A stretch of DNA of 45,637 nt from a virus (lineage: Duplodnaviria; Heunggongvirae; Uroviricota; Caudoviricetes), in IMG/VR virus record IMGVR_UViG_2529292910_000009, positions 1 to 45,637 of that record. One strand, given 5' to 3'. Numbering within the stretch: the first letter of the stretch is position 1; every line of letters starts with the position of its first letter. Below are positions 27,001-30,000 of the stretch, piece by piece. Made by a program: the position numbers.

Positions 27001-30000
27001 TCAGCTTCCTGTTTTGTAGCCACGGCATGACCGCTGATTAACAAAACTTTCCACTGTTCTGGTTTTAGCCATCTGCCGCACCACTGAACCTGTCGGGAGA
27101 TATCAGCGACCATCGCGTGAAATTTGGCATTTTGATCGAGATTCCGCTTGTAATCGGTGATGCGGATCGTAACGGGTTTGTCTTTATCGAGAGTTGTTGC
27201 AAGGATGGCGTTAATGGCGAATTGTTGCTGCTGCTTACTTCGGAGGAAGATAGTCTGGTTCATTATTCCCTCTCACTGGATTTTCCCAACAAAAAAGGAG
27301 CCGAAGCTCCTTTAGTTTCAGAATTCAAATTGTCTTGCCCGCAGGCTTTTCAGCATTGGCATGGCCCGCTGGATAATGGAACTTGACATGTCGAGACGTG
27401 TTACCTCCCTTAGTAGCGCGTCTCTGTTCTTCGTCACCATGTAGATGGTCTCAAACGCAATGTCATACAGCTTGTTCGTGTATGAGGAGTTCAGCTCTTT
27501 CATAATGGGATACAGGTGTTTGCTTAGGTCCTGGGCTTTTTCCATCCAGAGCTGCATGTAGCAAAGGAGGATGATTTCTTCGGCTGTGAATTGTGGCTGA
27601 ATCTGCGGCTGCTGTTCGGTTGGTGCTGTTTTTCCCTGGCTGAAATAGCAGTCTTCCAGTTTTTCGAATACCTCCCACGCCTGATCAGTTTCGAGCATTT
27701 TTGCGTGACGGGCTGCGCCGCGTTCTGTCCATAGGATGAGGGAGCGAACGTTACGGGCAATTTTCACAGAGTAGTTAAAAGCTACTCTGTGCTTGAACTC
27801 ACGTAAAGTTTCACCTTCAAGTTTGAAGAAGTGTTTTTCCTCAATGAAACGACCTTTGTTTTCGTGGTGATTCTGGCGAATACGAATAGCTTCTGTGCCG
27901 TAAAGGTGCGCCAAAAGTTCGGTAGTGATAACGGGGATCTGCTTGTAAGTAATCGTGGAGAGTGTTTCAACAGAAACTTGAGTTGTCATAATGACGCCCT
28001 CGAGTGGTTTCTAAACTATCACCACCGTCAGGTTCCTAATCATCGGGTGGCGAGACGTACAGGGTTAGGAACTACCGGGAAACCAACCGGCGAGCTTTTC
28101 AGCTCCCCTATACGCCCCACCATAATTCAGATGTGCGTGTGCATACGACAATAAAAAACACGCTCGCGGCGTGTCTCTGTCGCGGTTTCTATCCGGGGTT
28201 CCTAATCCCGACGCCAGATTTTGCTGGCGTGCGATGAATATAATCCCGGATACGCGACGTTGTCAAACTGATGGCATTGCAGATCCCTACGCAATGTAAC
28301 ACTATGTGTTATACATTAATAACGGAACAAAAAATGCGCATTTTTAAAAACGCCTGGTTTGAGCGATTTGCACGCAAAAACAAAATATCCGACCAGTCAC
28401 TGCGCGAAATTGTTAAACAGGCTGATAACGGGCTTATCTCAGCAAACCTGGGTAACGGCGTTATCAAGCAACGTCTGCCACGAGTCGGTGGCGGCAAATC
28501 TGGCGGTTATCGCACAATCATTTTCTATCGCGTCGGCACAAGGGCCTTTTTCGTATATGCATACGCAAAAAATGAACGTGAAAATATAACCGCTACTGAG
28601 GCATTTCGGAAGGGGCTCCTCACGTACTCAATCTAACAGATGAACAACTGGCACAACTGATTCTACAGGGTCAGTTTACGGAGGTACCCAATGAGTAAAA
28701 ATTACCGCAGTGATGCGCTTGCATCCGTACATGAAATGATGGAATCGCTTCATGATATCGGCGCAGTAACGAAACAGACTATGCGAGAATTCGATGAAAC
28801 TTGTCTCCAGCCAGCGCCGGTAATGTCTCCGGAAAGGATCCGTGCACTGCGCGAACGAGAGCATCTGTCTCAACCTGTTTTTGCCAGATACCTCAACGTC
28901 AGTAAAAACCTGATATCAGACTGGGAACGTGGTGTAAAACGGCCGGGAGGTGCCGCTCTTCGCCTTCTTTCAGTCGTAGAGAAAAACGGAATCCAGGTAA
29001 TATCATGATACTCCAATACAACAAAACCCGCCGAAGCGGGTTTTCATTAGAAGCACCTTTAGTTTTGCTGTTCTATTTTAAGCTTGATAGTTTCATACAA
29101 AACAATAGTTGCGCCTGTTTTACATAATTCCCGGCTGTCATACGCACGAGACCAATAACACAACCAGTTCTCGAGATCTTCTCGAGTATAGGTTTTGCAG
29201 GCCAGTCCCTCTGCCATTTCCACGATTTCATCGCCTGGTGCTGTTAACTCATAGCCATTCAACAACAAGAAGACATAACCAGCCATCATAGCTGTTCGTT
29301 TGTTTGCATTAGCAAATGGATGATTCTGAATCAGACTTTCAATCAATACTGATGCCAGTACAAACATGTCATTAGTCTGTTCATACCATCGAACCATGCT
29401 GGGACGAGACTGAGAAGAACTTAAATTATCAACACTCAGCACACTAACAGGTTCATCTGGTGTTTGAAGCTCAATTAAAAGGCGATTAATTTCGGTAAGA
29501 TCATCAAACGAAAGGTAGTGCACTCCTTCAACAATCTCAGCCATAGAGCACAATACCCATCATTACACTTTTGAAAGTTCTTCCATTGCCTTCTCGTAAC
29601 GAGAAAAACCGAAATCGAAAGCATTTTTCACCTGCTCACGATGAGTGCAATTTTCATCGATAGCCGGGCGCGGAGCTGCCACAACGCTTTTATCGCGAGG
29701 GGGAATAGTCAATCGCGGGTGTTTTTTTAGTGCGTAGCTCATTGGGTGTACCCTTACTTCTCCGTCCTGTTCTTTAACAAAAATCAAGTCAATACAAAAT
29801 TAGTCAGGCTAATGTTGTTAGCATAGCCTAATACCGATCGTATTCACAACCACAGTACGTGAAAAAACCCGCCGAAGCGGGTTAAGTGCGGGTGCGTTGA
29901 GGATGCCTGACACATCAGAGGTGGCGAGGGATTTCTCCCTCGCCTGGTCTCTTACTCCTCAGGTTCGTAAGCTGTGAAGACAGTGACCTCCGTCTGGCCG

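What the first reader, a model, noticed from the sequence alone, without database searches (positions are those of the whole stretch)
29059..29787. Doc-family toxin with an unrecognised small upstream partner
29059..29544 carries the Doc signature HPFANANKRTA. The 59-aa upstream ORF (29563..29742) does not resemble Phd by eye, so it may be a different antitoxin family. The locus adjoins the HigBA-like and hok loci, giving three toxin systems within 2 kb in the nin region.
Basis: partly seen in the sequence, partly recalled or inferred. Interest (0 to 1): 0.5.

Follow-up and report, generated by a model that had tools for sequence, protein, structure and literature searches.

The report
Doc toxin with minimal unnamed antitoxin
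A prophage carries an 841-bp insertable two-gene cassette: a Doc-type growth-arresting kinase and, just upstream, a 59-residue protein that is very probably its antidote. This antidote belongs to a small family that no database names, was listed but never studied in 2006, and appears to keep only the toxin-binding helix of normal Doc antitoxins.

Summary
Window 29544..29059 (-) encodes a 161-aa Doc toxin (TIGR01550 1.3e-35; motif HPFANANKR). Window 29742..29563 (-) encodes a 59-aa protein with no Pfam, NCBIfam or PADLOC match; RefSeq calls it hypothetical and PHROG 2208 gives no function.

The small protein is real and tied to Doc. Nucleotide differences fall mainly on third codon positions. 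The same 55-60-aa family lies directly upstream of this ~160-aa Doc subfamily in 29 loci from Enterobacterales, Orbaceae, Pseudomonas, Entomomonas and Halomonas, in unrelated contexts. An exhaustive profile search found only about 37 clusters, all short.

AlphaFold predicts one C-terminal helix (residues 34-57) and an unstructured N-terminus. That helix aligns end-to-end with the C-terminal Doc-binding segment of AbrB-type Doc antitoxins (0 of 300 shuffles reach the score). It aligns only marginally with Phd.

The cassette is an 841-bp indel flanked by a 20-nt repeated terminator hairpin, and an empty site exists in another E. coli.

Most likely this is a type II Doc toxin-antitoxin module whose antitoxin lacks the usual DNA-binding domain. 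Fico & Mahillon (2006) already listed the family as an uncharacterised "group 2" Doc partner. It is therefore a new member of a known kind, of modest interest. Neutralisation, toxicity and regulation remain untested.

The parts
29059..29544 (-). doc: a 161-aa Doc (death-on-curing) family toxin, a predicted EF-Tu kinase.
   Evidence: TIGR01550 scores 122 bits against a cut-off of 38.65. Pfam Fic gives 2.9e-11. The closest solved relatives are E. faecalis Doc 9VZC (1e-12) and P1 Doc 3K33 (1e-4). The AF2 model's best Foldseek hits are P1 Doc chains (prob 1.0, rmsd 1.8 A over ~75 columns). RefSeq names it a 'type II toxin-antitoxin system death-on-curing family toxin'.
29296..29322 (-). Catalytic Doc motif H-P-F-A-N-A-N-K-R (residues 75-83), matching HxFx(D/N)(A/G)NKR.
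   Evidence: Read directly from the sequence. H75, F77, N79, N81, K82 and R83 are invariant in 23 subfamily members. The motif definition is as quoted in PMC13034048.
29563..29742 (-). The 59-aa partner gene, the putative antitoxin. It belongs to an unnamed family (PHROG 2208; 'group 2' of Fico & Mahillon 2006).
   Evidence: It has no Pfam, NCBIfam or PADLOC hit. It matches phrog_2208 at 2.7e-42, function unknown. In 29 loci from five groups of Gammaproteobacteria the same family lies directly upstream of a homologue of the ~160-aa Doc subfamily. Differences concentrate on third codon positions (4118 against 2179 and 1377). The exhaustive profile search found 39 hits, of which about 37 are true members, all 38-95 aa.
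29572..29643 (-). Coding region for the predicted C-terminal alpha-helix (residues 34-57, HREQVKNAFDFGFSRYEKAMEELS). This is the inferred Doc-neutralising segment.
   Evidence: AF2 predicts a helix at 34-57 with pLDDT 74-86. This is the most conserved part of the family: A41 and L56 are invariant and Y49 is >=90% conserved. hhalign aligns it end-to-end with the C-terminus of AbrB-type Doc antitoxins (score 18.7, P 0.004, 0/300 column shuffles). The alignment to Phd 26-71 puts F42 on F56 and L56 on L70 (P 0.018, 7/300 shuffles). F56 and L70 are the 'gatekeeper' residues in Salmonella Phd (PMC9207808).
29689..29715 (-). Coding region for the conserved N-terminal motif R-L-x-I-P-x-R-D-K (residues 10-18). 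Its role is unknown.
   Evidence: I13, P14 and R16 are >=90% conserved across 43 family members. AF2 predicts no secondary structure here, yet pLDDT is 83 for residues 11-20. The motif aligns weakly with the ITRRG..AV beta-hairpin signature of Phd.
29023..29042 (.). Terminator hairpin and left copy of the 20-nt direct repeat AAAACCCGCCGAAGCGGGTT. It serves as a bidirectional terminator for doc (-) and the converging HTH gene (+).
   Evidence: The terminator scan finds it at 29044..29023 (-) with 9 pairs. It is retained as a single copy in the empty site.
29864..29883 (.). Right copy of the same 20-nt repeat. This is the hok terminator hairpin and marks the upstream boundary of the cassette.
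29043..29883 (-). The 841-bp cassette (upstream leader, partner, doc, terminator). It is present or absent as a single unit.
   Evidence: A synthetic 'empty site' query matches E. coli HCP4S3_I4 in one piece over 760/760 nt at 99.6% identity (H42). There the HTH gene is followed directly by hokD. The cassette is present in 106 of 5,426 complete E. coli genomes.
29820..29849 (-). Best candidate promoter, which is weak: TTGTGA (29849-29844), an 18-nt spacer, then TATGCT (29825-29820). The palindrome AATACGATCGGTATT (29844-29830) lies in the spacer.
   Evidence: Read by eye; it matches 8 of 12 consensus positions. It falls below the threshold of the consensus scan, which found no minus-strand promoter in 29743-29862. 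The palindrome is listed. This part is inferred, not shown.

Best explanation
This is a self-contained two-gene type II toxin-antitoxin cassette carried as a moron in the nin region of a lambdoid prophage.

The downstream gene encodes a Doc-family kinase. By homology it should phosphorylate EF-Tu and arrest translation.

The upstream 59-aa gene encodes its cognate antitoxin. Residues ~34-57 of the antitoxin fold into an amphipathic helix on binding and occupy the concave groove of Doc, as Phd 52-73 does in P1 and Salmonella and as EFPhd 52-79 does in E. faecalis. The N-terminal ~33 residues are proline-rich and unstructured. They replace the Phd/YefM or AbrB DNA-binding domain found in other Doc antitoxins.

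Shown here: gene integrity, family membership of Doc, strict and mobile linkage of the two genes, purifying selection, the predicted helix, its similarity to AbrB-type Doc-antitoxin C-termini, and the cassette indel.

Inferred only: toxicity, the EF-Tu target, physical neutralisation, antitoxin lability and regulation.
For: - **Doc membership.** TIGR01550 scores 122 bits against a cut-off of 38.65 and the HxFxNANKR motif is intact. The nearest solved proteins are Doc toxins and the nearest folds are P1 Doc chains.
- **Partner linkage.** In all 29 analysed loci that encode a ~160-aa Doc subfamily member, a 54-62-aa member of the same partner family sits immediately upstream on the same strand (Serratia, Providencia, Yersinia, Citrobacter, Xenorhabdus, Gilliamella, Pseudomonas, Halomonas and others). 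The surroundings are unrelated: phage baseplate genes (L002), a site beside dinI/umuDC (L004), and a site next to the integrase in Pseudomonas phages Sirocco and LPPA56.
- **Real coding gene.** Third-position differences dominate, most strongly in codons 35-59. A GAGG-type ribosome-binding site is conserved.
- **Structure.** AF2 predicts a single helix at 34-57 and no fold in the N-terminus.
- **Helix homology or analogy.** hhalign against 120 AbrB-type Doc partners aligns only the last 26 columns of both families (score 18.7, P 0.004, 0/300 column shuffles). More distant Doc homologues (L035-L037) carry such AbrB-type partners, ending ...RYKVALQKLAE. The partner family ends ...RYEKAMEELSKV. 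Against Phd, F42 aligns with F56 and L56 with L70. These are the two gatekeeper residues needed for Doc inhibition in Salmonella (PMC9207808). A 22-residue Phd C-terminal peptide alone binds Doc with a Kd of 73 pM and inhibits it, so a helix-only antitoxin is mechanistically sufficient.
- **Autonomy.** The cassette is an 841-bp indel with an empty site in nature.
Against: - No experiment or complex model supports binding.
- The similarity to Phd is marginal (P 0.018, 7/300 shuffles). The weak alignments among the three antitoxin types are not mutually consistent in register, so the residue-by-residue mapping is tentative.
- The Doc AF2 model is mediocre (pLDDT 69, and only one of five models is good). 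The Foldseek E-values are only about 1e-2.
- No sigma-70 consensus promoter is detected upstream of the partner in this window, so expression in the lysogen is unproven.
- The conserved N-terminal motif has no explained role.
Confidence: 0.75

Rival explanations
1. The partner is an antitoxin and also the autorepressor. In this reading the conserved N-terminal RLxIPxRDK segment is a minimal DNA-binding element, for example a beta-ribbon formed in a Doc-bridged dimer. It would bind a palindrome in the cassette promoter and give classical type II autoregulation despite the absence of a recognisable DNA-binding domain. This adds to the best explanation on regulation rather than replacing it.
For: The motif is conserved at >=90% at I13, P14 and R16 across distant members. 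Many family loci have clear sigma-70 promoters with a palindrome in or next to the spacer. One example is L011, with TTGACT, then TAATGAAAGTTAGCTTTCATTA, then TAAGCT. Others are L010 (TATAGCTTGAGCTATA) and L002 (TTACCTTTAAGGTAA). The window has AATACGATCGGTATT. The motif aligns weakly with the ITRRG..AV hairpin of Phd.
Against: The palindromes differ in sequence between loci whose N-terminal motifs are nearly identical. No k-mer is significantly enriched after multiple testing. AF2 predicts no strand or helix there. There is no Pfam hit to RHH, AbrB or Phd families at E<=1. Thirty-three residues is shorter than any known antitoxin DNA-binding fold.
Confidence: 0.2
2. The pair is not an active toxin-antitoxin system. 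On this view Doc has been domesticated or is non-toxic, for example as a phage-encoded modifier of a host or phage protein during lytic growth, transcribed only by antiterminated read-through from pR. The small protein would then be a cofactor or specificity subunit rather than an antidote.
For: No consensus promoter is found in the 120-nt leader of this copy. The cassette lies in the early-right operon downstream of a terminator that N-modified polymerase would override (established lambda biology). This Doc subfamily has a conserved C-terminal extension (ENWLCYWSRxYDSRxLC, residues 125-141) that is absent from P1 Doc. That extension could alter target or partner contacts. Frameshifted doc copies occur in databases (P0123, P0029).
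Against: The catalytic motif is invariant. Gene order, spacing and size are those of type II TA modules. The same pair occurs outside phage early operons, in tail-gene clusters and beside integrases, often with strong promoters of its own. The partner helix resembles known neutralising segments.
Confidence: 0.1
3. The Doc toxin is controlled by a neighbouring gene rather than by the 59-aa ORF. Candidates are the converging HTH protein at 28691..29008 and an RNA. On this view the 59-aa ORF is an unrelated small phage protein.
For: Three toxin loci are packed within 1.9 kb. The HTH gene and doc share a terminator.
Against: The RelE/HTH pair and hok persist unchanged when the cassette is absent. 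The partner-Doc pair occurs in many genomes without RelE/HTH or hok. Rfam finds no RNA inside the cassette above threshold.
Confidence: 0.03

Closest known systems
Phd-Doc of bacteriophage P1 and of Salmonella Typhimurium (PDB 3K33, 3DD7; PMC9207808)
   Same: The toxin is a Doc-family protein with the HxFx(D/N)(A/G)NKR motif. The operon is antitoxin-first and is carried by a prophage. The antitoxin C-terminus is a ~22-25-residue helix with F and L positions 14 residues apart, and the L lies 3 residues from the C-terminus.
   Different: The toxin shares only ~22-24% identity with P1 Doc over the core. It is 35 aa longer and has a conserved C-terminal extension. The antitoxin lacks the Phd/YefM N-terminal DNA-binding domain entirely: 59 aa against 73 aa, no PF02604 hit, no predicted fold. 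The host element is an integrated lambdoid prophage, not a plasmid prophage.
AbrB/MazE-type Doc antitoxins: TIGR02609-like 'addiction module antidote', TasA-TasB, and E. faecalis EFPhd-EFDoc (PDB 9VZC; PMC13034048; PMC1626090)
   Same: EFDoc is the closest solved relative of this Doc (E 1e-12). The C-terminal 26 columns of the partner family align significantly with the C-terminus of AbrB-type Doc partners. In 9VZC the antitoxin residues 52-79 form the bent helix that sits in Doc.
   Different: There is no SpoVT/AbrB domain: PF04014 is absent, whereas all 120 listed AbrB-type partners carry it. The partner is 15-20 residues shorter. Whether it drives Doc dimerisation as EFPhd does is unknown.
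'Group 2' upstream partners of Doc/TasB homologues (Fico & Mahillon 2006, PMC1626090, Additional file 3)
   Same: This is the same protein family. The Y. pestis CO92/KIM/91001, S. Typhi Ty2 and P. aeruginosa PAO1 sequences end ...QVKNAFxFGFxRYEKAMEELSKV. The Y. pestis locus was recovered here independently as L010.
   Different: That paper only grouped five sequences as putative antitoxins 'unrelated to TasA', without structure, mechanism, naming or tests. The E. coli prophage copy and the cassette boundaries were not described there.
PaaA2 of the paaR2-paaA2-parE2 module in the E. coli O157:H7 cryptic prophage CP-933P (PMC8630535)
   Same: Both sit in a lambdoid (pro)phage. From my own recall rather than, PaaA2 is also a small antitoxin without a DNA-binding domain.
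   Different: The toxin family differs (ParE, not Doc). That operon carries a third gene, paaR2, which encodes the transcriptional regulator. The 841-bp cassette here has no third gene.

Membership tests
Doc (death-on-curing) toxin family, TIGR01550 / Pfam PF02661 Fic-DOC | Scores above the curated HMM cut-off | tested here: met
   TIGR01550 scores 122.2 bits against a cut-off of 38.65, covering residues 11-130 and model positions 2-122 of 122. PF02661 scores 44.5 bits against a cut-off of 24.
Doc (death-on-curing) toxin family, TIGR01550 / Pfam PF02661 Fic-DOC | Doc variant of the Fic motif, HxFx(D/N)(A/G)NKR | tested here: met
   H75-P-F-A-N-A-N-K-R83 is present. It is invariant in the subfamily alignment.
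Doc (death-on-curing) toxin family, TIGR01550 / Pfam PF02661 Fic-DOC | All-alpha Fic/Doc fold | tested here: inconclusive
   The AF2 model has a mean pLDDT of 69. Its top five Foldseek PDB hits are P1 Doc chains (prob 1.00, rmsd 1.7-1.9 A over 74-80 columns), but their E-values are only 0.01-0.06.
Doc (death-on-curing) toxin family, TIGR01550 / Pfam PF02661 Fic-DOC | Phosphorylates EF-Tu (T382/T383) and arrests translation | not testable with these tools
   Inferred from homology only. The activity is documented for P1 and Salmonella Doc (PMC9207808).
Type II toxin-antitoxin module | Two adjacent co-oriented genes, with a small antitoxin upstream of the toxin, inherited and moved as one unit | tested here: met
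   The spacer is 18 nt. The pair is conserved in 29 loci in unrelated contexts. The 841-bp indel carries exactly the two genes.
Type II toxin-antitoxin module | The antitoxin protein binds and neutralises the toxin | not testable with these tools
   Support is indirect only, from helix similarity.
Type II toxin-antitoxin module | [quoted passage not shown] | tested here: inconclusive
   No DNA-binding domain is detected. Palindromes occur in promoter regions of many family loci, but they are not conserved in sequence.
Phd/YefM antitoxin family (PF02604) | N-terminal Phd/YefM beta-alpha DNA-binding and dimerisation domain | tested here: not met
   There is no Pfam hit at E<=1 for the 59-aa or the 74-aa form. 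AF2 predicts no strand or helix in residues 1-33. Only a marginal profile alignment to Phd was found (P 0.018, 7/300 shuffles).
Phd/YefM antitoxin family (PF02604) | C-terminal Doc-neutralising helix with hydrophobic hot spots and gatekeeper F and L | tested here: inconclusive
   A helix is predicted at 34-57. F42 aligns with F56 and L56 with L70. L56 is invariant. F42 looks to be the commonest residue in the 22 displayed rows, with other residues in several distant members. The statistics are marginal.
AbrB/MazE/SpoVT-type Doc partner ('addiction module antidote', PF04014) | N-terminal SpoVT-AbrB swapped-hairpin domain | tested here: not met
   There is no PF04014 hit and no NCBIfam hit at E<=1. 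hhalign finds no N-terminal alignment.
AbrB/MazE/SpoVT-type Doc partner ('addiction module antidote', PF04014) | C-terminal Doc-binding segment | tested here: met
   hhalign aligns columns 32-57 with columns 79-104, the last of 104. The score is 18.7 and P is 0.004. The 300 shuffles have mean 9.8, sd 2.0 and maximum 18.3, so 0/300 reach the observed score.
Class I Fic antitoxins (VbhA/YhfG-type, inhibitory motif (S/T)xxxE(G/N)) | Presence of the alpha-inh motif | tested here: not met
   No (S/T)xxxE(G/N) occurs in the 59-aa sequence (read directly). The motif definition is from my own knowledge.

The most novel reading that the evidence does not exclude
The 55-60-aa family would be the smallest class of Doc antitoxin: a helix-only neutraliser that has lost its DNA-binding domain altogether. 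On this reading the module is not autoregulated by conditional cooperativity. The conserved N-terminal IPxRDK segment would be a second, new functional element. It might be an extended peptide that contacts Doc (active-site plug or dimer clamp), or a degron that sets antitoxin lability. This would make the cassette a compact, promoter-to-terminator 'plug-in' toxin module that spreads between temperate phages by recombination at terminator hairpins.
Probability: 0.3. Interest if true: 0.5.

Novelty: new member of a known kind. Interest (0 to 1): 0.3.

Why it matters
Doc toxins are studied as persistence factors and as drug targets through Phd-mimicking peptides. A natural antitoxin that is little more than the neutralising helix would be a ready-made minimal inhibitor scaffold. 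It would also test whether a type II module can work without antitoxin-mediated autoregulation.

For annotation, about 37 protein clusters across five groups of Gammaproteobacteria, now labelled 'hypothetical protein', could be named as Doc antitoxins. The Doc genes beside them would then stop looking like orphan toxins.

The precise 841-bp indel, bounded by a repeated terminator hairpin, is a clean example of how morons are swapped in the nin region of lambdoid prophages.

Tried and rejected
- **Complex structure.** No interface model could be made.
- **Natural fusion.** I looked for a partner-Doc fusion in the hit lists. P0123 (180 aa) is only a frameshifted doc.
- **Solved relatives of the partner.** The PDB profile search returned only chance hits with E>0.2.
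- **Defence-system membership.** PADLOC returned nothing meaningful.
- **Conserved operator.** Palindromes are common upstream of family members, but 5-mer enrichment against flanking controls is dominated by AT-rich words. ATAGC/GCTAT (15 loci against 6.7 expected, p 7e-4) does not survive 496 tests. I rejected it as evidence.
- **Promoter.** The consensus scan found none on the minus strand in the leader. Only an 8/12 manual candidate remains.
- **Deeper Phd profile.** The viral-contig scan returned 80 loci all 100% identical to P1 Phd. This confirms the P1 sequence but adds no diversity, so the Phd comparison rests on three sequences.
- **Y. pestis functional data.** Goulard et al. 2010 (PMC2897361) is not held.
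- **Fic-type inhibitory motif.** The (S/T)xxxE(G/N) motif is absent from the partner.
- **SLING surveys.** The E. coli and Klebsiella surveys list many 'novel' Fic partners, but nothing specific to this family appears in their main text.
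Full report
**Observation**

On the minus strand, 29544..29059 encodes a 161-aa protein containing HPFANANKRTA. It matches the curated Doc model TIGR01550 at 122 bits against a cut-off of 38.65 (E 1.3e-35). It also matches Pfam Fic/DOC and PHROG 577 'Doc-like toxin' (1e-50). The motif fits the Doc signature HxFx(D/N)(A/G)NKR, and its key residues are invariant in 23 subfamily members.

Eighteen nucleotides upstream, in the same frame, 29742..29563 encodes the 59-aa protein MSYALKKHPRLTIPPRDKSVVAAPRPAIDENCTHREQVKNAFDFGFSRYEKAMEELSKV. The finding's upper coordinate, 29787, is only the TTG start of the mechanical ORF. Homologues and RefSeq begin at the ATG.

The stated neighbours are real. A RelE-family toxin and an HTH protein lie at 28271..29008 (+), and hok lies at 29952..30164 (-) with an Rfam sok hit beside it. 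The region lies between the replication genes and ninB-ninE-rusA-ninH-Q of a lambdoid prophage. That prophage is 99.8-99.9% identical over the 951-nt query spanning the cassette to one in E. coli O104:H4 and other strains.

**Is the small ORF a gene, and is it tied to Doc?**

It has no Pfam, NCBIfam or PADLOC match at permissive thresholds. It matches only PHROG 2208, of unknown function, and RefSeq calls it a hypothetical protein.

A word-indexed search found 17 close clusters. An exhaustive HMMER profile search of 1.84 billion representatives found 39 hits. About 37 of these are true members, all 38-95 aa, with no long or multidomain relatives.

I scanned one genome per species for relatives of the Doc protein and read the DNA upstream of each match. 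In every locus that encoded the ~160-aa Doc subfamily, a 54-62-aa member of the same small family lay immediately upstream on the same strand. The genera include Serratia, Providencia, Morganella, Yersinia, Citrobacter, Kluyvera, Hafnia, Xenorhabdus, Proteus, Arsenophonus, Gilliamella and other Orbaceae, Pseudomonas, Stutzerimonas, Entomomonas and Halomonas.

The surroundings are unrelated from locus to locus:
- phage baseplate genes in Ewingella;
- a site beside dinI/umuDC;
- a site next to the integrase in Pseudomonas phages Sirocco and LPPA56.

Among seventeen 59-codon members, differences fall mainly on third codon positions: 4118 against 2179 and 1377. The bias is strongest in codons 35-59. 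A GAGG-type ribosome-binding site is conserved. The ORF is therefore a protein-coding gene under purifying selection that travels with doc.

**Anatomy of the partner**

The family consensus is M-x-x-A-x-x-K-x-x-R-L-x-I-P-x-R-D-K-x-x-V-A-x-P-R-P-A...H-x-x-Q-V-x-N-A-F-x-x-G-F-x-R-Y-E-K-A-M-E-x-L-S-K-V. A41 and L56 are invariant. I13, P14, R16 and Y49 are at least 90% conserved.

AlphaFold2 with this alignment predicts a single helix at residues 34-57 (pLDDT 74-86) and no secondary structure in the proline-rich N-terminal 33 residues.

**Relation to known Doc antitoxins**

More distant Doc homologues recovered in the same scan (Symploca, Sphingomonas, Mesorhizobium) have AbrB/SpoVT-type partners ending ...MDRYKVALQKLAE. 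All 120 listed relatives of the Mesorhizobium partner carry PF04014.

A profile-profile comparison of the 59-aa family with these AbrB-type partners aligns only the last 26 columns of each family, end to end. The score is 18.7 with P 0.004. None of 300 column-shuffled versions reached it (mean 9.8, sd 2.0, maximum 18.3).

Against three Phd sequences the alignment is marginal (score 14.9, P 0.018, 7/300 shuffles). It places F42 on Phd F56 and L56 on Phd L70. It also places the IPPRDK..VA segment on the ITRRG..AV hairpin of Phd. F56 and L70 are the two 'gatekeeper' residues required for Doc inhibition in Salmonella. There the 22-residue Phd C-terminal peptide alone binds Doc with a Kd of 73 pM and blocks EF-Tu phosphorylation (PMC9207808).

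In the closest solved relative of this Doc, E. faecalis EFDoc (9VZC, E 1e-12), antitoxin residues 52-79 form the bent helix that sits in the toxin (PMC13034048).

One caution applies. The weak alignments among the three antitoxin types are not fully consistent in register. The residue mapping is therefore a hypothesis, whereas the end-anchored similarity to the AbrB type is the solid result.

**The Doc protein**

It is 35 residues longer than P1 Doc. A conserved stretch, ENWLCYWSRxYDSRxLC (residues 125-141), runs 11 residues past the end of the TIGR01550 match and is followed by a variable tail.

The AF2 model is of moderate quality (pLDDT 69). Its best structural matches are the P1 Doc chains, followed by Fic domains.

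**The cassette**

The 20-nt hairpin AAAACCCGCCGAAGCGGGTT occurs twice, at 29023-29042 (the doc/HTH terminator) and at 29864-29883 (the hok terminator).

I built a synthetic sequence that joins the two flanks through a single copy of the hairpin. It matches E. coli HCP4S3_I4 in one piece over 760/760 nt at 99.6% identity. There the HTH gene is followed directly by hokD, and the junctions align exactly.

The partner-doc unit is therefore an 841-bp insertion/deletion bounded by a repeated terminator. It carries 120 nt of leader, the two genes and a terminator, which is the classic moron layout. It is present in 106 of 5,426 complete E. coli genomes. It is rare in sequenced phage isolates (3 of 50,697) and essentially absent from plasmids, where the one hit is a 4-Mb record. 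The indel also shows that the RelE/HTH and hok loci are independent of it.

**Regulation remains open**

The consensus scan finds no promoter in the leader of this copy. The best manual candidate is TTGTGA-N18-TATGCT with the palindrome AATACGATCGGTATT in the spacer.

Other family loci have strong sigma-70 promoters with palindromes in or beside the spacer. However, the palindromes differ between loci with near-identical N-terminal motifs, and no word is significantly enriched. I cannot say whether the partner or the complex binds DNA. In this prophage the genes could also be read through from pR under N antitermination.

**Most likely mechanism**

This is a type II Doc toxin-antitoxin cassette. 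Doc is predicted to phosphorylate EF-Tu, by homology. It would be held inactive by the C-terminal helix of a minimal antitoxin that lacks the usual DNA-binding domain. I put confidence in this at about 0.75.

Rival readings are given with the report:
- an added autoregulatory role for the N-terminal motif (0.2);
- a non-toxic or lytic-phase role for the pair (0.1);
- control of Doc by a neighbouring gene (0.03).

**Prior knowledge and novelty**

Fico & Mahillon (2006) surveyed the partners of Doc/TasB homologues. Their 'group 2' comprised five gamma-proteobacterial loci. Additional file 3 of that paper shows the same C-terminus...QVKNAFxFGFxRYEKAMEELSKV, for Y. pestis, S. Typhi and P. aeruginosa (PMC1626090). 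The family has thus been catalogued as a putative antitoxin for two decades. In the sources I could search it has not been named, modelled or tested.

Modular swapping of antitoxin families on Doc is well established (same paper). PaaA2 of the paaR2-paaA2-parE2 module is, from my own recall, an antitoxin without a DNA-binding domain. What I read confirms only that this module carries a separate regulator gene, paaR2 (PMC8630535).

This locus is therefore a new member of a known kind. I rate interest as modest, at 0.3.

Noticed in passing
window 27318-28243 (-): A P1/P7-type C4 immunity module lies inside the nin region. Its parts are isrK (RF01394, 28153-28230, 69 bits), C4 antisense RNA (RF01695, 28043-28127, 66 bits) and the a1/b1 target element (28190-28243, 44 bits, just under the gathering score). 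They sit directly upstream of an ORF6N + P22AR-C antirepressor gene at 27318-27989.
   Followed up: partly
window 28271-29008 (+): A toxin-first RelE-family (PF06296, 1.2e-36) plus HTH_3 pair, HigBA-like in layout, converges on doc and shares its terminator hairpin. RefSeq annotates a shorter 85-aa toxin in O104:H4 and a 123-aa one overlapping the HTH gene in HCP4S3_I4, so the start codon is uncertain.
   Followed up: partly
window 29952-30276 (-): A hok/sok type I locus. The Hok domain (PF01848) lies in the 70-aa ORF, which RefSeq calls as the 51-aa HokD. The full-length Rfam sok model hits at 30102-30276 with 117 bits.
   Followed up: no
window 29862-29943 (-): A sub-threshold isrK-like Rfam hit (31 bits against a gathering score of 50) overlaps the hok terminator and right repeat copy. 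It probably reflects only the shared hairpin.
   Followed up: no
L007, L011, L012 (Providencia/Morganella), about 60-95 nt upstream of the partner start: These loci have a near-consensus promoter: TTGACT-N17-TATAAT in L007 and L012, and TTGACT-N17-TATAAG in L011. A 22-bp near-perfect palindrome fills the spacer, TAATGAAAGTTAGCTTTCATTA in L011. Comparable spacer palindromes of different sequence occur in L002, L006, L010, L017 and L019, and a TCAAC-N5-GTTGA palindrome overlaps the -35 in several loci.
   Followed up: partly
proteins P0123, P0029, P0024 (relatives of the window Doc): Frameshifted or truncated doc copies are present in public E. coli assemblies. Fico & Mahillon also note two frameshifts in the P. 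aeruginosa PAO1 copy. This suggests recurrent inactivation of the toxin.
   Followed up: no
window 30573-31217 (-) and neighbours: DUF551, DUF977 and DUF1627 genes of unknown function lie between the replication genes and hok.
   Followed up: no
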